DNA from: Eledone cirrhosa
Taxonomy: Eukaryota
Assembly (NCBI GenBank): GCA_964016885.1
Contig: OZ024742.1
Location: forward strand, 190,774,001-190,838,000
DNA: 64,000 nucleotides
Direction of reading: 5' to 3'
The notes beneath the pieces were generated by a model, which saw nothing but the letters and a program-made list of their open reading frames with translations, did not search any database and was not told the origin of the DNA. Made by a program: the position numbers and the translations under genes. Below are positions 111 through 47,099 of this stretch, piece by piece. Every line of letters begins with the position of its first letter. Position 1 is the first letter of the stretch.

Positions 111-844
111 ACACACAAAGGAACGCATAATCGATGCTCTAGCGATTTTTCCAGTATGTCACCTGATTTAAATAATCTTCAAAATTGACAAACCTGATAG
201 TTTTTTCATCACTATATAAATCCCAGCTTTTTATATAATCTAATCATTTTCCTATTCTAAAATTCACAAATAACTTAAAGTCATTTTCACACCCACCTTC
301 ATTTCATACATATTACATTCCTACAGTTTCTACGACAAATCTTTTGAGGATAAGGGAAGCTAATATATTAGCAACATATATTTGTCGGAACATTGAAGAA
401 TAACATCACAAACACAAAATCTCGATTGTATTGAATACGAGTTTGTTAATTTTCTTATCAGCATTGGATGAAATACAGAACCGAATTCCTATGCGTAATA
501 TTTTCGTTATATTACATTATTATTCACTGAAGCTAGGAAAAGAAAAGTGATATATTTTTTTTAGTTAACATCATTTACTCGAGAGAATATATTTCTACAA
601 TGTATGATATATATTTTAGAGTCTTCTAATGGTTATATTATTTTACTCTTTACCGGTTTCAGTCATTAGATATGAAATTACGAAGCTTTTGTGAACGTTT
701 TTCTCAATGTGTATGCCTATGTGTGTGATACTCTGTCTATATATATAGTGTGTGCTGTATATATTTTGAAGATTCATTAATCTGAATTATAAAAACAACA
801 AAATAAAATATGTTATCATTAATTTCTTCTTCTATTCTTACACA

Positions 845-3994: not shown

Positions 3995-4212
3995 TGAAGG
4001 CGTGTGGCTGAGTGGTTAGAGAATTGGATTCGCAATCGTAAGGTTGTGAGTTCGATTCCTGGACAAGGCGATGCGTTATGTCCTTGAGCAAGACACTTTA
4101 TTTCACGTTGCTCCTTCTACCTGGAGTTGCGACCGATAGATAGTATTAGCAATTGGAAAGACCAACGGAAACATTGTTCCCTCGGTTCGATTTGACGAAA
4201 GTCGATCGTTCC
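3995..4212 (+). mobile_element. tRNA-derived SINE with CORE-like domain
   Basis: A box TGGCTGAGTGG, B box GTTCGATTCC, then tgtccttgagcaagacacttta. Flanked by (TA)n. A near-identical copy starts at 63866. Confidence 0.8.
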
Positions 4213-4283: not shown

Positions 4284-4734
4284 GCGTGTGTCTGTACATG
4301 TGTATGTGAGCGAGGATGTGAATGTGTATGCGAGTATGCATACGATTGTGAGAGCGTGTGAGACTGTGAGGAGAGTGTGTGCGTGTGCATGTGTGCGTAC
4401 ATATGTTTATACTATGATAAACTTTTAACATTTTTATTGCCAACTGTCAGAGCTAGTGAAAATATATGCTATTTTCAAAAATACACAGTGACTGATCGGC
4501 CTGATTTGCATATTAGCAGACTGGCTGATCAGTCAGATCTGAATATTAGTAGATCCACTGATCAGCCAGATTTGCATATCATCAGACTGGCCAGACAGTT
4601 TCCTGTATACGAGCAATAAATGGCCGGCTTTACCATATTCAAATAAAAAGAAAATGTTCGCTGTACATGGCTAAATACAATAAATGTAATATGAGTTTTT
4701 CAATAGCTCTGACAGTTTGGCAGGTGAACATGCA

Positions 4735-4780
4735 GCTGTACTGATGAAGGGTGATACCCGGAAACATTAGTGTATGCAGT
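4735..4780 (+). ncRNA. Type I hammerhead ribozyme
   Basis: gctgta-CTGATGA-a gggt gat accc g-GAAAC a ttag t GTA-tgcagt; stems I, II and III pair. Confidence 0.8.
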
Positions 4781-5171
4781 TCTGTTCACATGCTAACACA
4801 AGAGCAAGAGTGAAGAGTTCATTCTACTGACATGGCTATAAAATTGAGACATGTTTGCATAATTGCAAACGAATCGAATGTTATTAATATTCGAAAAACT
4901 CAGATTACATTTATTGTATTCAGGCACGTAGAGCGAACATTCTCTTTTTAATTTGAATTTGGCAAAGCCGGCCATTTATCGCTCGTATACAGAAAAACTG
5001 ACTGGCTAGTCTGCTGATATGCAAATCTGGCTGATCAGTGGATCTGCTAATATGCAGATCTGACTGATCAGCCAGTCTGCTAATATGCAAATCAGGCCGA
5101 TCAGTCACTGTGTATTTTTGAAAATAGCATATATTTTCACTAGCTCTGACAGTTTGGCAGGTGAACAGTGA

Positions 5172-5217
5172 GCTGTACTGATGAAGGGTGATACCTAGAA
5201 ACATTAGTATCTGCAGT
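5172..5217 (+). ncRNA. Type I hammerhead ribozyme (second copy, slightly degenerate)
   Basis: gctgta-CTGATGA-agggtgataccta-GAAAC attagt ATC-tgcagt; one mismatch in stem III. Confidence 0.65.
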
Positions 5218-5377
5218 TCCGTTGCCAACACAAGCGCAAAACTGAAGGGTTCATTCTACTGACATGGCTATAAAATTGAGGCTTGTTTGCATAATTGCAA
5301 ATAAATCGAATATTATTATTAATATTCGAAAAACTCAGATTACATTTATTGCGAGGTAGAGCGAAAATTTGCTTTTT

Positions 5378-5409
<32 letters not shown>

Positions 5410-5544
5410 AACATAAATATATAAACATACAAACACACACACACACATATATATATATATAATATATACACGGAGTTTGTATATCTCTGTCACTCAAACA
5501 ACAATGGAATAGTTACTGCGCAATATCGAATCGCTCTAGGTTAG

Positions 5545-7285: not shown

Positions 7286-7346
<61 letters not shown>

Positions 7347-7475
7347 AACGGAAAAAATGAAACGAAATTTCATTTCTCACTCTTAGTACGGCTGTTACTT
7401 AAATATAAGTATGTATACGTTCATACATATATGTATACAGACGTACAGTAGTATGTATATATATATACATACATG

Positions 7476-7512
<37 letters not shown>

Positions 7513-7629
7513 GTATGGATTCACCGAACATTTATTATAATGCACGGTGTGTTTGTAAACAAACATCCCGAATTAAGCCGTAGTGTCTAGCAACCATCGT
7601 TGCTCATTTGTTCAACCCTGACAAAGGAA

Positions 7630-7670
7630 CGCTGTACTAGTTTCAAGCTTATTAGCTATCGTCAGCAACG
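7630..7670 (-). ncRNA. Type I hammerhead ribozyme (family X)
   Basis: cgttg-CTGACGA-t agct aata agct t-GAAAC ta GTA-cagcg on the minus strand. Confidence 0.85.
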
Positions 7671-8101
7671 TATACCTTCCTGCCAGATGATTGAACGTCT
7701 GAAAGTATATACTTTCCTTATGCATATTAACGGCTGAGGAGCCTAATTTGCATATCGAGTGAGTTAATCGGCCGGGGTACCGAAAACGATAAACGGGAAA
7801 AATGAAACGAAATTTCATTTCTCACTCTTAGTACGGCTGTTACTTAAATATAAGTATGTATACGTACATACATATATGTATACAGACGTACAGTAGTATG
7901 TATATATATATACATACATGCACACATATATATATATGTAGGTATGGATTCACCGAACATTTATTATAATGCTCGGTGTGTTTGTAAACAAACATCCCGA
8001 ATTAAGGAGTACAGTGTCTAGTAACCATCGTTGCTCAGCCGTTAATATGCATAAGGAAAGTATATACTTTCAGACGTTCAATTATCTGGCAGGCAGGTAT
8101 A

Positions 8102-8142
8102 CGTTGCTGACGATAGCTAATAAGCTTGAAACTAGTACAGCG
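8102..8142 (+). ncRNA. Type I hammerhead ribozyme (family X)
   Basis: Same motif on the plus strand; predicted cleavage after 8137. Confidence 0.85.
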
Positions 8143-8352
8143 TTCCTTTGTCATGGTTGAACAAATGAGCAACGATGGTTGCTAGACACTGTACGGCTTA
8201 ATTCGGGATGTTTGTTTACAAACACACCGAGCATTATAATAAATGTTCGGTGAATCCATACGTACATATATATATATATATGTGTGCATGTTTGTATATA
8301 TATATACATACTACTGTACGTCTGTATACATATATGTATGTACGTATACATA

Positions 8353-8431
<79 letters not shown>

Positions 8432-15152: not shown

Positions 15153-17531
15153 GAATAGAGTATCTGTTTTATCACTAATGTCAGAGAGTGACGGTTAGGT
15201 GGATAGAGAGTAGTGTCCCTTTAAAAGGGGTTTTGTACATGTATGTTTAAGTGTGTGGGAGAATACGTGAAAGTGTATGTATGTGTGTGTGAGTGTGAGT
15301 GTGAGAAGATATGTGTATACGTAAATGTGGGGAATAGATACTCTCTCGTGTTAGAACTGGTCTTTGTGTGTGTATGTGTGTGTGTGTGAGAGAGAGAATA
15401 AGTGTGTAAGCGTGTGTGTGTGTGCGTGAATGTGTGCGTGTGTGCGTGTGTGCGTGAGGGGGTGTAAGTATGCGGCTAGATGCTCTATCAAGTTATAAAT
15501 TGGGTGTTGAGTTCTAGTCTATTATTGATTGGTGGTGTGTTTTGTCTATAATCAGTGCTGCCTTAATTCTAAGATTGCTGACGTTTCTTTCCTTAGTTTC
15601 TATCCTAACTGTTATGGATTTGTCTGTGTTTTTGCATTTCACTAGGTATTTCTTAAATGAGGAAGCGTTAGTATTGAGGTCTTCTTTTATTCTAATGTGA
15701 AGTGGTCTGGTGGTGCTACCTACGTAGAAGTTGCTGCATTTGTCGCACTCTAGTCTGTATACGGCGTAGGCCTGGTGGCATAGGTCTGTGTCGTTGATGG
15801 GGCAGTTGGCTAGACTGCAGCGGCTGTCATGTCTGGTGGAGTGTCTTTTGGTTAGCTGTCCGCGTAGAGAAGGTCCTGAGTGGGCTAGTTGGATATCTAG
15901 TCCCTCTCGTCTGATAGCTCTGCGGATGGCTGTTGTTGTTTCGTCACTGAAGTGTGGGAGTTTAAGGAAGCAAGTGTTAGTGCCTCGGGTGTGGTGTCTT
16001 CTGTTCTTTCTGGCACGGTTCGTGGTGGATGTCGGGTAACCGTTCAGTTTGAGTACTTCCAGGAAATATGTGATGTGTGTGTCTCGGTCTCTAGCGTCGG
16101 TGCATTTGTTACGGATACGTGTTAGTTCGTTCCTTATCTGTATTCTGTATCCAAACTTAGCGCCGGCTGGGAGGGCTGATCTGAAATGTACGAACTGGTC
16201 CCTGCTGGCGGCTTTTTTATAGAAGCAAGTGTGGATGTTGCATTCCTCTGTTACCCTGACATCCACTGCTACGGCTTCCATCCGACGGACATACACCAGC
16301 TTTTGTCCTTCACAGTGGACAACACGTACTTCACCTTCCACCACCACACATACAGACAGACAACGGGATTACCCATGGGATACAGCCGATCGGGCCTGCT
16401 GGCCATCACCTATATGAACCAGCTAGAATGCCGAGCCCTCAACACCTGCCATTCCCATACTTTCTTCACCCGATATGTAGATGACATACTCATCCTTATA
16501 TCATCCCGTGAGGAGGCGGATAATATATACACGACATTCTCCAGCATGGACGCCAGTATAAGGTTCAGCAGGGAACACCCCGATGACCGCGGATCCCTAT
16601 CCCTATTGGACTTCCATCTCAGGGTAACAGAGTAAGGCAACATCCTCACCTGCTTCTATAAAGAAGCCGCCAGAAAGACCTGTTCCTACATTTCAGATCA
16701 GCCCTCCCAGCCGGCGCTAAGTTCGGATACATAAGGAACGAACTACACGTATCAGGTACAAATGCACCGACGCTAGAGACCGAGACAATACACACCACAC
16801 ATTTCCTGGAAGTACTCAAACTGAACGGATACCCGACATCCACCACGAACCTTGCCAGAAATAACAGAGGACACCACACCCGAGGCACTAACACTTGCTT
16901 CCTGAAGCTCCCACACTTCAGTGACGAAACAACAACAGCCATCCTCAAAGCTATCAGACGAGAGAGACTAGATATCCAACTAGCCCACTCAGGACCTTCT
17001 CTACGCGGACAGCTAACAAAAAGACACTCCACCAGACATGACAGCCGCTGCAGTCTAGCCAACTGCCCCATCAACGACACAGACCTATGCCACCAGGCCT
17101 ACGTCGTATACAGACTAGAATGCGACAAATGCAGCAACTTCTACGTAGGTAGCACCACCAGACCACTTCACATTAGAATAAAAGAAGACCTCAACACTAA
17201 CGCTTCCTCATTTAAGAAACACCTAGTTAAATGCAAAATTACCGACAAAAACATAATAGTTAGGATCGAAACTAAAGAAAGAAACGTCGGCAATCTTAGA
17301 ATTAAGGAAGCACTGATTATAGACAAAACGCAACCATCAATCAATAATAGACTAGAACTCAACACCCAATTTATAACTTGATATAGCATCTAGCCGCATA
17401 CTTACACCCCCTCACGCACACACGCACACATTCACGCACACATACGCACACACACACAGACGCTTACACCTCCACTTATTCTCTCTCACACACATCTATC
17501 CCCCACATTTACGTAGACATATCTTCTCACA

Positions 17532-20199: not shown

Positions 20200-20994
20200 A
20201 TTGAGGATGATGATGGTGGTTGTGGATGAGTTGGTGGTGGTGGTGATGTTGGTAGTGGTGGTGGTGGTGGTAGTGGAGATGATGGTGGTGGTGGATGAGT
20301 TGGTGGTGGTGGTGATGGTTGTAGTGGTGGTGTTGGTGGTAGTGGAGACGATGGTGGTGGTGGAGGGGTTGGTGGTGGTGGTGATGGTGGTAGTGGTGGT
20401 GGTGGTGGTGGTAGTGGAGACGTTGGTGGGGGTGGAGGGGTTGGTGGTGTTGGTGATGGTGGTAGTGGTGGTGTTGGTGGTAGTGGAGAAGATGGTGGTG
20501 GTGGAGGGGTTGGTGGTGGTGGTGGTGGTAGTGTAGGTGGTGGTAGTAGTGGAGATGATGGTGGTGGTGGAGGGGTTGGTGGTGGTGGTGGTGGTAGTGT
20601 AGGTGGTGGTAGTAGTGGAGATGATGGTGGTGGTGGAGGGGTTGGTGGTGGTGGTAGTGGAGATGATGGTGGTTGTGGATGAGTTGATGGTGGTGGTGAT
20701 GGTGGTAGTGGTGGTAGTGTAGGTGGTAGTGGAGACGATGGTGGTGGTGGAGGGGTTGGTGCTGGTGGTGATGGTGGTAGTGGTGGTAGTGTAGGTGGTG
20801 GTAGTAGTGGAGATGATGGTGGTGGTGGAGGAGTTGGTGGTGGTGGTGATGGTGGTAGTGGTGGTGGTGGTGGTAGTGGAGACGTTGGTGGTGGTGGAGG
20901 GGTTGGTGGTGGTGGTGATGGTGGTAATGGTGGTGTTGGTGGAAGTGGAGATGTTGGTGGTGGTGGAGGAGTGTGTGGTGGTGGTGTTGGTAGT

Positions 20995-21025
<31 letters not shown>

Positions 21026-21069
21026 ATGATGGTGGTGGTGGAGGAGTGTGTGGTGGTGGTGTTGGTAGT

Positions 21070-21100
<31 letters not shown>

Positions 21101-24100
21101 ATGATGGTGGTGGTGGAGGAGTTGGTGGTGGTGGTGATGTTGGTAGTGGTGGTGGTGTTGGTGGTGGTAGTAGTGGAGATGATGGTGGTGGTGGAGGAGT
21201 TGGTGGTGGTGGTGGTAGTGGAGATGATGGTGGTGGTGGCGGAGGAGTTGGTGGTGGTGGTGATGATGGTGGTAGTGGTGGTAGTGTAGGTGGTAGTGGA
21301 GACGATGGTGGGGGTGGTGGTGTTGGTGGTAGCGGAGGTGATGGTGGTGGTGGAGGAGTGTGTGGTGGTGGTGGTGCTGGAGGAGTTGTTGGTGGTGGTG
21401 GTAGTGGTGGTGGTGTTAATGGTGGTGGTGGTGGCGTTGGTGGTGGTGGTAGTGGAGATGATGGTGGTGGTGGAGGAGTTGGTGGTTGTGGTGATGGTGG
21501 TAGTGGTAGTGGTGGTGGTGTTAATGCTGGTGGTGGTGTTGGTGGTAGTGGTGATCATGGTGGTTGTGGAGGAGTTGGTGGTGATGGTGATGTTGGCAGT
21601 GGTGGTGGTGTTAATGGTGGTGGTGGTGTTGGTGGTAGTGGTGATCATGGTGGTTGTGGAGGAGTTGGTGGTGATGGTGATGTTGGCAGTGGTGGTGGTG
21701 TTGGTGGTAGTGTAGATGATGGTGGTAGTGGAGGTGGTGGTGATGGTGGTAGTGGTGGTGGTGTTAATGCTGGTGGTGGTGTTGGTGGTAGTGGTGATCA
21801 TGGTGGTTGTGGAGGAGTTGGTGGTGATGGTGATGTTCGCAGTGGTGGTGGTGTTAATGGTGGTGGTGGTGTTGGTGGTAGTGGAGATGATGGTGGTAGT
21901 GGAGGTGTTGGTGATGGTGGTAGTGGTGGTGGTGTTAATGCTGGTGGTGGTGTTGGTGGTAGTGGTAGCGTTGCCTTTTTGAATGACTTTGGTGGTAGTG
22001 GATTTAATGGTGGTGATTATGGCAGTGGTGGTGTTGGTGCTGATGGTGATGTTAGTGGTAGTGGTAGTGTTGTTTTTTTGAGTGACTTTGGTGGTAGTGG
22101 AGATGATGGTGGTGATGATGTTAGTGGTTGTTTTGGTGTTAATGCTGGTGGTAGTGTTGGTGGTGGTGTTGGTGGTGGTGGTGATGTTAGTGGTAGTGGT
22201 AGTGATGCTTTTTTGAGTGACTTTGGTGGTAGTGTAGATGATGGTGGAGGTGTTGGTGTTGGTGGTGTTGGTGATGGTGGTGCTAGTGGTAGTGTTGTAT
22301 GAGGGGGTGACGTCGTTGGAGGTGATGGGAGTGTTAGTGGCAGTAGGGATGTGTTGTGAAAGTTCATGTAATGGTTGTGATGATGGCAGTTATGGTTATT
22401 GTGATGTAGACAATATTGGTGGTGGTGCTGTTGATGGTGGTGGTGGTGTCGTTGATGGTGGTGGTGGTGGTGTTGTTGTTGATGATGGTGGTGTTCATGA
22501 TGTTGGTGTTGATGATGGTAGCGGTGTTGTTGCTGGTGGTGGTTTTGTGATGATGGTGGGCTGGTCATGACGGTGGTGGTGTTGTTGATGGTGGCGGTGC
22601 TGATGAATGCGGTTGTGTTGTGATGACGGTGGTGGTGTTGTTGATGGTAGTGGTGTTGATGAAGGTGGCGATGTTGATCATGATGGTGGTGTTGATGATG
22701 GTGGTGGTGTTGATGAAGGTGGCGATGTTGATCATGATGGTGGTGTTGGCGATGGGGGTGGTGTTGATGATGGTGGCGATGTTGATCATGATGGTGGTGT
22801 TGACGAAGGTGGTGGTGTTGATAAATATGGTGGCTTCAGAGATGGTTCTGATGCTGGTTGTCGTTGTAAAAATATTTACAGCGTTGTTTAATGTGGTGAA
22901 TATGTTGTTTAAGGCGATGATGTTTGTTGTGGGGGTAGCGGTGTTGGTGGCATTTGAGGTGGTAATGGTGTTGATGTTGTTGTTGGTGGTGCTGCTGGTG
23001 TTGGTGGAAGAAGTAGTAATGGTTTTGTTAGCAATAGCAGTGGTAGTGACGGTGGTGTTCTTTTGCTGATGATGATGATGATAATGATGTTGATGATGAT
23101 GATGATAGCGATACTGGTGATGCTTGGGTTTGTGGTGGTGTTATTGGTAATGGTTTTGGCGATGTTGTTTGTAGTGGCTATGGTGTTGTGTGTTTCGTTA
23201 GTGGTGCTGATTCCTGTTGGTGGTTGTGTTGGTTTTAGTGGTAATGGTTGTGGTAGGGATAATAGTGCTGTTTGTGTCGAGTACAAAGAAGCCGGATATC
23301 CATTATCTTTGGTCGGAAGTGTCGTTGTTGATGGCTATTTGGCAACGCATGGAACAATATCTAATGAAAAACACTGTTGTGTAGGCCAGGAGGGGTGGTG
23401 TTGTAGGAAAGAAACTGAGGAACAGCAAAGACGATTATGTTACCACCAACAACACCACCACCACTACCACCACCACCACCAATAACAACACCAACACAAT
23501 AAACACAAACATAACCAGCACCACCAATACCACCACCAACACAACAACACCAACCACCACCACTCCCACCACGAACACCAGCACCACCAATACCACCACC
23601 AATACAACCCCAACCACCACCACTACCAGCACCACCAATACCACCACCAACACAACAACACCAACCACTACCACTCCCACCACGAACACCAGCACCACCA
23701 ATACCACCACCAACACAACAACACCAACCACTACCACTCCAACCACGAACACCAGCACCACCAATACCACCACCAATACAACCCCAACCACCACCACTAC
23801 CAGCACCACCAATACCACCACCAACGCAACAACACCAACCACCACCACTCCCACCACGAACACCAGCACCACCACCACTACCAACCACCACCACTACCAG
23901 CACCACCAATACCACCACCAACACAACAGACCCATCCACCACCACTACAGGCGACAACACAATAAACACAACCGTAACCAGCACAGCCAATACCACCACC
24001 AACACAACAACCCCAACCACCACCACTACCAGCACCAGCAACACCACCCCCAACACAGCCCCAACCACCACCACTACCAGCACCACCAATACCACCCCCA

Positions 24101-24300
24101 ACACAACAAACCCATCCACCACCACTACCAGCAACAGCACAATAAACACAACCATAACCAGCACCACCAACACAACAACTCCAACCACCACCACTACCAG
24201 TACCAGCAACACCACCACCAACACAACCCCAACCACCACCACTACCAGCATCACCACTACCAACGCCAATACAACAACAACAACCACAACCACAACTACC
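20200..24300. repeat. Bipartite (GGT)n / (ACC)n trinucleotide-derived minisatellite; Thr-rich mucin-like if translated
   Basis: G-rich on + at 20200-23260, C-rich on + at 23440-24300, with higher-order units. The minus-strand Thr frame is open from ~22390 to 20107. Confidence 0.9.
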
Positions 24301-24828: not shown

Positions 24829-25520
24829 TAGCAGCAGTCCCCAGCGTTGCCTGGGTAGGTAAAATAATATCTGCTTTGATGAAAAGGTGTTGATCTTAGC
24901 GACTGCTTCTCGATGACTCATCTATGGCCACACACAGGCCATGCGGGGGAGGGTGGTGATGACCTCTATCACTGAGAAATGCAGGTGACTGACGAAAGAG
25001 CATACTGGTGGAGGGTGTTTCGAATTTGAATGAAATTGGTTGAAAAATGTGGGAGTTAGAGCCGAAAAGGTAGTATTTTCGAATATTTAAGCGGCTGCCA
25101 TGCCGTTCCTGAACAAAAAAAGAGTTTAAGATGTGAAATAATCAGATCTAGCGTAGTGACAAATTTGAACAAAGTAGGTTTATTAATATGGGAGCTAGAG
25201 CCGAAAAGGTGGACATTTGAGTCTAAAAGTGGTATTTTTGAGTATTTAAGCAGCTGCCACGCCGTCCCTGAACAACAAATGCAAAATGTAAAGCCACTAC
25301 AGGATGTGCAATCACAAATTCTATTTCGCTTTAAAATTTGAACGAAATTGGTGTGCAAAATGTGGGAGCTAGAGCCAAAAATCTTATTTTTCGATACCTA
25401 AAAAAAGGGGACTCCATTATCAATTTTTATCTGCAGAGTGACGCTGGAATAAAAAAAAAAACGATACGCTGATATATAGAAAACACTCCTCGATGACTAA
25501 TCTATGAGCCTGTAAATATG
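24827..25520 (-). mobile_element. Helitron/Helentron-type non-autonomous element, 3' part
   Basis: Minus-strand end cccaggcaacgctggg hairpin followed by CTAGT; internal repeated gggag.tagagccgaaaagg. Confidence 0.6.
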
Positions 25521-25571
25521 AAAAGGAAAGTATATACTTTCAGACGTTCAATCATCTGGAAGGAAGGTATA

Positions 25572-25612
25572 CGATGCTGACGATAGCTAATAAGCTTGAA
25601 ACTAGTACATCG
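25572..25612 (+). ncRNA. Type I hammerhead ribozyme (family X) with compensatory stem I change
   Basis: cgatg-CTGACGA-tagctaataagctt-GAAAC ta GTA-catcg. Confidence 0.85.
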
Positions 25613-25860
25613 TTCATTTGTCAGTGTTGAACAAAAGGGAAACGATGGTTTCTAAACACTGTACGGCTTAATTCGGAATGTTTGTTTACAATCAAACCGA
25701 GCATTATAATAAATGTTCGGTAAATCCATGCGTACATATATATGTGTGTGCATGTATGTATATATATACATAATACTGTACGTCTGTATACATATATGTA
25801 AAATAAAGTACCAGTAATGCACTGGGTAATTGTTGGCCTTGTGCCTAAAGTAGATACAAT

Positions 25861-31289: not shown

Positions 31290-34200
31290 AAGGCAGACGG
31301 ATATGAAAAGGGGCTAAACTCTACTCCAATCATGCTGCGGTTAAAAGCCAACTCCAACGAAGAAAAATTCAAGTCACTCGACCAACAGATGGAAACAGAA
31401 ATCTCAAGGCACTCTTAATGCCTTCTCTATGAAAAATCTTAAAACTCTGGAAGGAAAATTGTGAGGATGGGGGTAAAAAAACGCCACCTGGTTCAACAAC
31501 TATGAAATGGATTTAAAAAATTAACAACATACAGGTAACCCATTTTTAAAACAAAATAAACTCACACATCACACTCACAACAAATAACAAAAAAAGTAAC
31601 AAAACGTCCAACATACCCCCAGCAAAACTATGACGATAATCACAAACCCATAAAATAATTAACGATGCCTGTAAAGAATCCACCTCAACCTGCGTTATCA
31701 CGCAATACCCCACTGACCTTAAATTAAAGCCAATTGTAGCGGGCCCACAATGTGAAACACGCAGATTAAGCAACTTTAGAGACATACTACTAAAACCAAT
31801 TCTCAAACACATACCAAGCCTTGCAAGAGACGATCTGGACCTCTTAAACCACCTCTCCAAACATGTCAACAACGACACTATTATTGTGTCTTTCGATGTA
31901 GTGAATCTCTACACAACGATCACACACAAATACGGACTAGAAGCAATGGGATTCTGGCTAGAGATATATCCCAATGAGATATCTGACAGAATAGAAAAAA
32001 GCTTCATCACCGAGGGATTAAAATTTATTTGACAGAACAACTTTTTTTTTATTTCGATAGCAGTACTTAGAAGCAAATATCGGGGACTGCGATGGGTACA
32101 AAAGTCGGTCCAACTTATGCCAACTTAGTCATGGCATACTTAGAAGTCCAGATATATGAACACTCCAAATCAAAATACGGATTGAACTTCCACAAATATT
32201 TATCAGAGAATTGGAAACGCTACTTGGATGATTGCCTTATTCTTTGGTCTCACACACTCGACCAACTAAGTGATTTCAAAAATTTTGTTGTAAAAAATCA
32301 CTTCATTTGCTCATCATAAAATTTACTTTATGCCAACCATTAAATGTAAAGGATGCAATGAAGATTATATAGGATAAACTAAACTCACATTCAGAAACAG
32401 AATGACAATTCATCGCCAACAATTACGAGGCCCTACCACAAGGCAGTAACCACGCAGTGCACATCTAGACACATGCGCAAGTAATAAGACACCCAAATTC
32501 CAAGTTTTCCCATTTTATCTTTGCGCTGACAATAAGGAAAATATGCTTATTCAAAAATATAGACCAGCATTAAATATAGTTTAATATACATTATTTCGTG
32601 GATTGGCAGTATCGGTAGAGGGTCGGACGCGATGCTTTCCAGCATAGTTACGTCCCTTTACGATCTGAGTTCAAATCCCGCCGAGGTTGACTTTGCCTTT
32701 CATCCTTACGGGGTCGATAAAATAAAGTACCAGTAATGCACTGGGTAATTGCTGGCCTTGTGCCAAAAGTAGAAACAATTATTTCAACACCATGCAGTGG
32801 ATTGGCAGTATCGGTAGAGGTCGGACGCCATGCTTTCCAGCATAGTTATGTCCCTCTAAGATCTGAGTTCAAATCCCGCCGAGGTTGACTTTGCCTTTCA
32901 TCCTTACGGGGTCAATAAAATAAAGTACCACTAATGCACTGAGTAATTGCTGGTCTTGTGCCTAAAGTAGAAACAATTATTTCAACACCATAACATGCTA
33001 ACCATCCAAACAGAAACATACATACACACACAATACCTTCTATATTCGAAAATAAAAACCGGAGCTAAATAAACCTTAACATACGTTAACACTCTAACAC
33101 CTTAACATGCTAACCATACCCCCCCCCCACACACACATAACTCCCTCCTCCATTTCTACTAACGGAATCATTTTCCTACACACACACACACACACATACA
33201 TACACAAATATATATTCTTACCATTTTAACATGCTGACCATACTCCCACACATACACACACACATATAACACCCATACGCACACACGCACAACTCCCTCC
33301 CCCATGTCTACTAATAGAATCATCTTCCTACCCACACACCAGCACACAAATAAACATACATATTTCTACTTTCTTTATTTCAATAGAAAGTCTGAATTTT
33401 AACACCGAAGCACATCAGCCATACTCACTGAACCAAAACAATTCTCCTCATCCCGTTTTTCACGACCATTATCTTGTGTCTGGCACAAAATTCTCTAAAT
33501 GGCTACAAAAGAAATTCCCAAATACGGGCACGAATTTTAATGTACTTGTTCACGTGACAGTATAATTTCATTTATAACCAATCAAATTACATTTCAGCAC
33601 ATCAGCCATACTCTCTGAACCAGAACAATTCTCTCATTCCCTATTTTCTAGATCATTATCTTTTGTTTGGCATAACATTCTCTAAAAGGCTACAAAATAA
33701 ATTCCTAAATACGGGCGCGAAATTTAATGTACTTGTTCACGTGACAGTAGAATTTCATTTATAACCAATCAAATTACATTTATGAAAAAAGCCTTCGTGA
33801 GCCACTTTTTTTAAGTAAACTAACCAAATTTCACTCATATATGAAAAAACAATTTGAAGGCAAAGATAATAAGAACATTGTAACGCGAACTGGCCCGAAA
33901 TTTATTGTACTTATTCACATGAAAGTCATCAACCAAACAAATTACTTCTCTAAAAACCGAGCATTTCGAGCCACTTTTTTCCATATAAAACAGAAGTAAC
34001 ATTCGAAGACCAACCAGATGCGAGAAAAACCACAAACCCTTCATCTCAATTCTACTTTTGAAAAGCCCAAGAACTGCGAAATCGGTAAAGGAACCAAATA
34101 AATATATTTAAAAAAAATAAAGACTCCAGTTGCATTTTCGATTTGATCATTTTTCCTTATACTTTCACTCGTGTAGGACACCTCGTTTTTTTTTCACTTT
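31290..34200 (+). mobile_element. Neptune-like PLE, decayed and internally deleted
   Basis: KPIVAGP, SFDVVNLYT, GTAMGTKVGPTYANL, WKRYLDD, then CKGCNEDYIG. The 3' extent is uncertain; ~190-bp tandem duplication at 33408-33780. Confidence 0.8.
32598..32980 (+). mobile_element. Two tandem tRNA-derived SINEs (Meta-domain-like)
   Basis: Near-identical ~185-bp copies at 32598 and 32797, each followed by attatttcaacac. Confidence 0.9.
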
Positions 34201-45222: not shown

Positions 45223-45992
45223 CAGATTAAAGTTTAAGCAAAGAATCGCTGCTTTCACCCTTAACGGGATCTTCTGAAACTAACAAAGTCAATCTGTAAA
45301 CGCAGAAGTGGATATTTCAAAAAACGTTGCAGCCGGAGGAAGACAGGAAGACGATACTTTGGTTCGTGGAAACGTTCCCTGGCAAAGAACGGGAAAAAAC
45401 GAATATAATACGTTCTCTACGGTTCTTATATATTTTATATATATTTATCCTTATCGAGCCCTCTTTGGATTTTAGTCTTCAAATTTATTATGATTACTAT
45501 ATATATATATATAAGTATGCACACGTACATACATATATGTATACAGACGTACATTAGTATGTATATATATATATACATACATGCACACATATATATATGC
45601 AGGTATGTATTCACCGAACATTTATTATAATGCTCGGTGTGTTTGTAAACAAACATCCCGTATTAAGCCGTAGTGTACAGCAACCATCGTTACTCGTTTG
45701 TTCAACACTGACAAAGGAACGCTGTACTAGTTTCAAGCTTATTAGCTATCGTCAGCAACGTATACCATCCTGCCAGATTGTTGAACGTATATACTTACCT
45801 TATGCATATTAACGGCTGAGTAGCCCAATTTGAATATCGAGTGGGTTAATCGGCCGGGTGCACCGAAAACGATAAACGGAAAAAATGAATGTTCGGTGAA
45901 TCCATACGTGATTATATATATGTGTGCATGTATGTATATATATATACATACTACTGTACGTCTGTATACATATAGGTATGTACGTGTACATA

Positions 45993-46032
<40 letters not shown>

Positions 46033-46440
46033 TATACATATATTTAAGTAACAGCCGTACTAAGAGAGGGAAATGAAATTTCGTTTCATTTTTTCCGTTT
46101 ATCGTTTTCGGTGCACCCAGCCGATTAACGCACTCGATATGCAAATTGGGCTACTCAGCCGTTATATGCATAAGGTAAGTATATACGTTCAACAGTCTGG
46201 CAGGAAGGTATACGTTGCTGACGATAGCTAATAAGCTTGAAACTAGTACAGCGTTCTTTTGTCAGTGTTGAACAAACGAGCAACGATTGTTGCTGTACAT
46301 TACGGCTTAATACGGGATGTTTGTTTACAAACACACCGAACATTATAATAAATGTTCGGTGAATCCATACGTGCATATATATATATGTGTGCATGTATGT
46401 ATATATATATACATACTACTGTACGTCTGTATACATACAT
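45215..46440. mobile_element. Family Y fragment plus rearranged family X copies with HHRs at 45720-45760 (-) and 46213-46253 (+)
   Basis: Direct similarity to 7346-8690; both HHR cores are intact. Confidence 0.85.
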
Positions 46441-47099
46441 TTTTTCCGTTTATATATATATATATAAACGTATATATGTGTCCGTTTGTACTAAAGTCTT
46501 ACGCACCAGTATGATAAAGTCAGTGGAATGTGTATATTCTATACAAGAGATCAGAAATAGTTTTCCGCCTTAGGCCCTTTCAAGTTTTAGGTCTGTGACA
46601 TCTTAGACATCGGTTTAATACTAACTATGTTCAGTTTGATTTTCGTTTCTATAATATAATTTCACCGGCAGCGGGTATAAACTTATATGTTATCGCTTAT
46701 AAATCATTCTTTGACTTACCTTAATGTATAAATACTGGTGCTTTCCATACATACATGGTGGTTGCCAACTCGTTTTCGAGTACGGCCGCAACTTTATATC
46801 CATGTAGGAGAAACCTACCGATGCGCTGAACGAGTGTGACTTTTTAGTCCACCCAGCGACTTGAAAACTCTAGTTACAAACACTACACTTGTGACAATTA
46901 TTGACCCAGTGTTGGGTCCATGGTACAATGTGACAGCAAGTGCAGAGAGATCTCCAGATATAAAGCAATGCATGTGCCGTGAAGCTTTTTGTAATGAGCA
47001 AAGGCACTGCACAAAGCCAGTCCCACTCTCTTAACCAAGATGATATTTACCAAAAAGAAGAACAAGTCAACATCATTGGATACCATCAGGTTTGCAGGT

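What the first reader, a model, noticed from the sequence alone, without database searches (positions are those of the whole stretch)
4442..5370. Retrozyme-like family 1: 437-nt HHR-to-HHR monomer
Seen: a tandem non-coding unit with HHRs predicted to cut after 4774 and 5211, preceded by an inverted partial copy. The body is built of ~22-bp subrepeats around palindromic ctgatcag. Known: animal non-LTR retrozymes are HHR-bearing tandem repeats that yield circular RNAs. Inference: this is a PLE-mobilised circRNA-producing family.
Basis: partly seen in the sequence, partly recalled or inferred. Interest (0 to 1): 0.7.

Follow-up and report, generated by a model that had tools for sequence, protein, structure and literature searches.

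The report
Hammerhead retrozyme copied by Penelope machinery
This is one worn copy of a 437-base non-coding repeat, present in thousands of places in this animal genome, that carries a predicted self-cutting RNA (hammerhead) and whose copies have the end pattern of Penelope jumping genes, so it is likely copied by their enzyme from cut and probably circular RNA, a route proposed before but untested here.

Summary
The hammerheads, the predicted cuts after 4774 and 5211, the 437-nt spacing and the inverted partial copy are real. The '22-bp subrepeats' are wrong: three 33-bp repeats over about 100 nt. The family has thousands of copies (3,755 exact matches of one 26-mer), about 2.6% from their majority, mostly dispersed and 5'-truncated, rarely tandem. 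Copies end at two fixed sites about 143 and 177 nt past the cut, in (TA)n. Of 56 back-to-back arm pairs, 53 use one site each; both arms share alleles. 5' ends pile up at the predicted cut site, which suggests cleavage in vivo. The unit carries words at the spacing of this genome's own U6 and U1/U2/U5 promoters. Most arms run past that predicted start, which favours a circular or multimeric template. One locus joins a retrozyme arm to a Neptune/Nematis-type Penelope arm, naming a candidate partner. No RNA was seen, and this window copy is probably dead.

The parts
4438..4705 (-). Inverted, 5'-truncated arm (unit +114..+385), joined head-to-head to the sense arm; its outer end is not one of the two usual 3' ends
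4697..5378 (+). Sense arm, about 1.6 units (from -78 through one whole unit to about +177 of the next)
4724..4789 (+). Hammerhead 1 (type I): core at 4741, predicted cut after 4774 (GUA; family majority GUC); loop 3 is a 10-nt self-complementary stretch
4775..5211 (+). 437-nt cut-to-cut monomer, 3.2% from the family majority; predicted to fold strongly as a circle (z -6.8)
4915..4950 (+). Tail between the short (S, about +143) and long (L, about +177) 3' ends of the family
5004..5102 (+). Three 33-bp repeats, each with an octamer-like word (5019, 5052, 5085); predicted long hairpin
5085..5133 (+). snRNA-promoter-like block: ATGCAAAT 5085, TCAGT 5101, TATA-like 5128; predicted start about 5158-5161
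   Evidence: activity untested
5161..5226 (+). Hammerhead 2: core at 5178, predicted cut after 5211; damaged in this copy (C-A mismatch in stem III, weaker stem II, loop-3 duplex -1.8 against -8.8 kcal/mol)
5350..5378 (+). Long (L) 3' end of the insertion, with a deletion of about 14 nt in the tail
5378..5470 (.). TA-rich microsatellite target flank

Best explanation
This is a decayed copy of a high-copy, protein-free, hammerhead-bearing repeat with Penelope-type ends that is likely mobilised in trans by a Penelope-like enzyme. Shown: dispersed 5'-truncated copies, two fixed 3' ends in (TA)n, one of each per back-to-back pair, shared alleles between arms, and an excess of 5' ends at the predicted cut. 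Inferred: rare source copies of two or more units are transcribed from an internal snRNA-type promoter; paired hammerheads cut (likely as a dimer through the palindromic loop 3); part of the monomer is ligated to a circle in which the core is folded off; the Penelope enzyme cuts both strands of (TA)n DNA and starts reverse transcription at the two internal sites, one per DNA end, usually on RNA from one source. Linear cut RNA would give arms ending at +1; circles or uncut multimers would give the longer arms.
For: Copy number. 3' ends: 166 of 252 arm ends at +130..+190 and 3 near the cut; 207 of 260 such ends followed by (TA)n against 9 of 82 other ends. 129 head-to-head against 5 tail-to-tail junctions; 53 of 56 pairs one short and one long end, p 4e-13. 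These match the tail, inverted copy and microsatellite bias in PMC8557442 and the two internal starts and both-strand activity in PMC11167929. Allele sharing: 256 of 285 between arms (shuffles 68%, max 78%), 475 of 543 between passes (71%, max 76%). Cut-site excess: 3.0 ends per nt at -1..+2 against 0.6 upstream, p 2e-4; 14 of 61 ends in 5 of 50 nt, p 0.002. Promoter words at host spacing. 48 of 56 and 12 of 18 arms pass the predicted start. Chimera L381.
Against: No RNA was observed, so expression, cleavage and circles are inferred. The excess over the 20 nt downstream of the cut is weak (p 0.045), and +13..+17 holds 16 ends against 14 at the cut, so stalling at stem I may explain part. Allele sharing cannot tell a circle from a linear multimer of one source. 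The promoter matrix score is 10.0 bits against 17-26 for real genes, and a minus-strand site scores 13.8; the motif windows were set after seeing the unit. A six-T run at about +173..178 (54 of 75 read-through arms) would stop polymerase III. The antisense circle also folds well (z -6.6). The candidate partner shares no detectable sequence with the unit. In PMC11167929 cleavage was not needed in vitro.
Confidence: 0.62

Rival explanations
1. Same element and same Penelope-type enzyme, but no circle: templates are linear, partly cut read-through or multimeric transcripts, and more-than-unit arms come from long sources or template jumps.
For: Cut-site excess shows linear 5' ends in both passes. 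Long arrays are absent. The chimeras show that two RNAs can be used in one insertion. PMC11167929 found unprocessed linear RNA to be the main substrate in vitro.
Against: Arms pass the predicted start without a wall in either pass; a linear transcript from that start could never restore a promoter-bearing source. One arm spans about 2.8 units (L101). The circle folds with z -12 for the majority unit.
Confidence: 0.27
2. The unit is the terminal repeat or a deletion product of an autonomous Penelope element, and the copies are its truncated 3' ends.
For: It has every end feature of Penelope insertions; only 150 of 10,596 GIY-YIG candidates were scored and 50 such loci examined, so a parent could be missed.
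Against: In 210 family loci, upstream of the repeat lies more unit, the other arm or unrelated flank; 13 loci have a Penelope protein hit, only 2 joined directly and both in mid-ORF. None of 94 free 5' flanks shares a common non-unit sequence except a nested SINE-like insert. No homology to the 50 Penelope loci beyond separate insertions.
Confidence: 0.08
3. The hammerhead is a passenger that does not cut in vivo; 5' ends gather there because reverse transcription stalls at the long stem I.
For: Ends are also in excess at +7..+24, the 3' strand of stem I, and at -80..-110, the base of the long hairpin. The monomer's best fold hides the core (-26.0 against -19.8 kcal/mol). Core divergence (2.5%) is no lower than the +109..+143 region (2.3%). 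In bioRxiv 2026.07.22.740005 only 1 of 9 tested dimers cleaved.
Against: The peak is sharpest at the exact cut (6 ends at +1) and drops just upstream. Common variants in stem I keep pairing. Loop 3 is fully self-complementary, as for dimer-active hammerheads.
Confidence: 0.2

Closest known systems
Metazoan non-LTR retrozymes (Cervera and de la Pena 2020, PMC7229834, parts 2-4 of 6 read; Li, Clavereau and Pollet 2026, 10.64898/2026.07.22.740005, parts 1-3 of 5 read)
   Same: Non-coding unit of 150-450 bp, low GC, type I hammerhead with short palindromic helix III, strongly folded predicted circle, thousands of copies, Penelope elements in the same genome.
   Different: Mostly dispersed and 5'-truncated, seldom two hammerheads in tandem; fixed two-site 3' ends and back-to-back arms; core predicted to be folded off in the monomer (PMC7229834 says it is free in most animal circles); promoter-like block (review PMC7761336, passages, says none seems present); circles not shown here.
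EN+ Penelope-like elements, Neptune/Nematis type (Craig et al. 2021, PMC8557442, passages and section 15; Frangieh et al. 2024, PMC11167929, parts 1-2 of 4; Cervera and de la Pena 2014, PMC4209133, parts 1-2 of 4)
   Same: 5' truncation, inverted 5'-adjacent copy, 30-40-bp tail at one end, (TA)n targets, hammerhead upstream of two internal start sites, an extra base at the foot of stem II.
   Different: No ORF. The strict one-short-one-long pairing and the 5'-end peak at the cut are not reported in the parts read; PMC11167929 saw no strand difference in start sites and no RNA-seq ends at the cut.
Newt satellite 2 (Coats, Zhang and Epstein 1994; not held; seen only as cited in PMC2220036)
   Same: Hammerhead repeat with an internal snRNA-type promoter.
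   Different: Newt repeat is a tandem satellite with a tested polymerase II promoter; here copies are dispersed and the promoter is only predicted, with both U6-type and U1/U2/U5-type words.

Membership tests
non-LTR retrozyme | Type I hammerhead in each unit | tested here: met
   Core and helices present; 179 of 217 hammerheads in held arms have an intact core; pairs kept in 91-99% of copies. Rfam models do not hit.
non-LTR retrozyme | Short non-coding unit without LTR-type features | tested here: met
   437-438 nt; only stop-to-stop frames of 102-111 aa on the minus strand; no Penelope ORF attached.
non-LTR retrozyme | Tandem copies with at least two consecutive hammerheads | tested here: inconclusive
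   Met at this locus and in 28 held arms (23 with two intact cores), but in only 1 of 79 genome-order loci; no long array was found in the sample, which covers mainly contigs C1-C2.
non-LTR retrozyme | Self-cleavage of the RNA | tested here: inconclusive
   Indirect only: 5'-end excess at the predicted cut.
non-LTR retrozyme | Expressed as unit-length circular RNA | not testable with these tools
   Needs RNA data or bench work.
autonomous Penelope-like element | ORF with reverse transcriptase and GIY-YIG endonuclease | tested here: not met
Penelope-mobilised element | Two 3' ends 30-40 nt apart (tail) | tested here: met
   Ends cluster at +143/+148 and +165..+180; loose ends at 4919, 4937 and 5349 in public contigs (possibly the source sample).
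Penelope-mobilised element | Inverted 5'-truncated copy at the 5' end; microsatellite targets | tested here: met
   129 head-to-head against 5 tail-to-tail junctions; 207 of 260 ends in (TA)n.
Penelope-mobilised element | Terminal sequence shared with an autonomous partner | tested here: not met
   No homology to 50 Penelope loci or to the chimeric partner's end (59 of 300 shuffles score as well); most Penelope loci were not examined.
snRNA-type promoter | Host promoter words at host spacing | tested here: inconclusive
   TCAGT near -57 in 22 of 29 distinct U1/U2/U5 upstreams and 0 of 24 U6; ATGC(A/T)AAT near -77 in 9 of 24 U6 and 0 of 29 others. The unit has both plus a TATA-like word, 1 of 5,000 shuffles, but a low matrix score.

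The most novel reading that the evidence does not exclude
The insertions are a fossil record of the whole retrozyme cycle: a self-promoted RNA that borrows both the polymerase II and the U6 snRNA promoter words, is cut by its hammerhead in the germ line, circularises, and is copied by a dimeric Neptune-type Penelope enzyme whose two halves start at two different fixed RNA sites, one per DNA end, and can even load a retrozyme on one side and its own RNA on the other.
Probability: 0.3. Interest if true: 0.78.

Novelty: new variant of a known kind. Interest (0 to 1): 0.52.

Why it matters
PMC8557442 calls the function of hammerheads in Penelope elements unclear, and retrozyme mobilisation by Penelope elements is proposed but not shown in the papers read. 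This family gives countable genomic footprints (cut-site 5' ends, one-short-one-long pairing, a mixed insertion) and a named candidate enzyme, so the model can be tested directly with one RNA and one protein. The element itself is an ordinary kind of repeat; no host function is indicated.

Tried and rejected
RNA search: no RNA holder listed; no evidence either way. Second read-laying over the hammerhead showed only 23 of 236 loose-end rows, none at the cut: uninformative. Rfam gave only microsatellite-driven microRNA hits below their cut-offs; ARAGORN nothing. RNA-editing scars, a lead from note e1-8803865: A>G 349 against T>C 319, p 0.39, not seen. A 5'-end pile at +109 is a nested SINE-like insert, and the pile near +270 lies at a hairpin apex where mapping is ambiguous; both set aside. 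The pile at -80..-110 was first read as a transcription start, then as stalling at the hairpin base. A PSE-like reading of +332..351 recalled from vertebrate U6 genes was not supported: best 21-nt matches to own U6 upstreams were at shuffle level. Twin priming explains only 7 of 21 non-canonical pairs. Rows dropped before counts: overlapping or duplicated loci L177, L179, L184, L190, L194, L129, L191, L018, L098; from then on also L201 (a mapping split, not a truncation). L382 as a second chimera is weak: its Penelope part runs on without a short or long end. Literature searches found no paper on an octopus retrozyme; PMC13282606 has no mention of ribozyme or retrozyme in its main text. No supplements were read; repeat libraries there may hold this family.

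Full report
Numbering: +1 is the first base after the predicted cut (window 4775); negative numbers run upstream.

Observation. Two type I hammerhead cores lie at 4741 and 5178 with predicted cuts after 4774 and 5211. The sense arm runs 4697-5378 and an inverted piece 4438-4705 abuts its 5' end. The body holds three 33-bp repeats, not 22-bp ones. Rfam has no matching model. Hammerhead 2 of this copy is damaged, and the promoter-like block lies only ahead of hammerhead 2, so this copy is probably a dead end.

Family. A genome search gave 3,411 first-look candidates; the 40 scored were the window copy and 39 others at 93-95%. Exact words occur 3,755 times (near the 3' end), 683 times (45-nt hammerhead) and 279 times (body). 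Thirty top monomers differ by 2.6% on average from their 438-nt majority. I mapped 210 loci: 30 top hits, 90 taken in genome order by the body word (of 279 matches, 100 listed), 86 by the 3' word (of 3,755, 100 listed) and 4 chosen by hand. Copies are mostly 5'-truncated; 48 of 79 genome-order loci hold a whole hammerhead and 1 holds two in tandem.

Ends. In samples not anchored on the 3' end, 166 of 252 arm ends fall at +130..+190 and 3 at the cut, so cut-to-cut RNA ends do not define the 3' end. Two groups exist, short (+143/+148) and long (+165..+180); 207 of 260 are followed by (TA)n. Arms join head to head 129 times and tail to tail 5 times; of 56 pairs with both ends canonical, 53 have one short and one long end (p 4e-13). 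This is the Penelope tail, inverted copy and microsatellite bias (PMC8557442), and fits two internal starts and both-strand extension shown in vitro for an anole element (PMC11167929). At 13 polymorphic non-CpG sites the two arms agree in 256 of 285 comparisons and two passes of one arm in 475 of 543, above every one of 300 shuffles: both come from one source, a circle or a multimer.

Cleavage footprint. In genome-order samples 14 of 61 5' ends within -20..+29 lie at -1..+3, 6 exactly at +1; density is 3.0 per nt at -1..+2, 0.6 upstream and 1.55 downstream (p 2e-4 and 0.045). The excess recurs one unit upstream (5 of 18, p 0.04). Against this, +13..+17 holds as many ends, so stalling at stem I may contribute. 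The monomer's best fold pairs the core with loop 3 (6.2 kcal/mol below the active fold), while loop 3 can pair with a second copy over 10 bp, the dimer design described in PMC4209133.

Promoter. Following notes e1-9564357 and e1-10353418, I fetched the genome's U6, U2, U1 and U5 genes. TCAGT sits near -57 in 22 of 29 distinct U1/U2/U5 upstreams and in 0 of 24 U6; ATGC(A/T)AAT sits near -77 in 9 of 24 U6 upstreams and in none of the others (the 15 U6 without it were kept in the count). The unit has ATGCAAAT at +312, TCAGT at +328 and a TATA-like word at +355, all pointing to a start at +385..388, where the extended stem I begins; 1 of 5,000 shuffles has this trio. The matrix score is weak and the test was set after the fact. 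A second family in the window has the same spacing. Arms show no wall at this start: 48 of 56 pass it in the first round and 12 of 18 in the second, 5 of them reaching the upstream promoter. If the start is right, linear transcripts could not restore a promoter-bearing source, which favours a circle (inference).

Partner. The genome holds many Penelope elements (10,596 GIY-YIG candidates, 150 scored) with reverse transcriptase, GIY-YIG and a CX4CxxC linker, the Neptune/Nematis type by PMC8557442. None of 50 loci shares sequence with the unit. But L381 joins a retrozyme arm with a long end, 5' to 5' and without a (TA)n spacer, to a truncated Penelope arm that ends at its own short end. That Penelope family (2,392 candidates) also has two ends about 37 nt apart, mixed in all 6 back-to-back pairs seen. 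L382 joins an arm to the same family (88% identical to L381), but its far end is unresolved. Two of 210 loci is suggestive; nested insertion followed by deletion is not excluded.

Verdict. It works like a non-LTR retrozyme driven by Penelope machinery. Membership is met for the unit and the hammerhead, only partly for tandem organisation, and untested for circular RNA. The kind is known; the dispersed form, paired start sites, cut-site footprint, promoter block and mixed insertion are not in the paper parts read, though other agents of this scan noted the same layout in other families of this genome (none for this sequence).

Noticed in passing
window 7336-8362, 25507-25800, 45506-46467: Second hammerhead family (unit about 445 nt) with back-to-back arms and the same octamer, TCAG(C), TATA-like, TGGCAGG, hammerhead spacing.
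   Followed up: partly
unit +109 in up to 55 of 210 family loci; related tandem pair at window 32598-32991: A SINE-like element of about 190 bp is inserted at one AT-rich site of the unit in one orientation.
   Followed up: partly
window 15538-17378 and 31471-32581: Broken Penelope ORF pieces; the first pair lies back to back (tblastn 78-89% to own Penelope proteins).
   Followed up: no
window 19796; 34373 and 34489: Further hammerhead motifs of other families with long stem II; the last two are an opposed pair.
   Followed up: no
21 head-to-head pairs incl. window 4438: Outer arm ends that are neither short nor long; about half fall at +328..+402, perhaps a minor third start region.
   Followed up: partly
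L381:3540-3735 and L386-L414: The candidate partner Penelope family has CCGACGA where a hammerhead core would have CUGANGA in most copies shown; its ribozyme status is open.
   Followed up: no
L261-L380: This genome's U1/U2/U5 genes share TCAGT near -57, AATTA near -89 and a TATA-like word near -30, while U6 genes use ATGC(A/T)AAT near -77: an unusual snRNA promoter code.
   Followed up: partly
window about 3995-4110: tRNA-like SINE head read from the sequence; ARAGORN calls no tRNA.
   Followed up: no
window 20209-24293: Long GGT-rich and then ACC-rich arrays with opposite strand skew.
   Followed up: no
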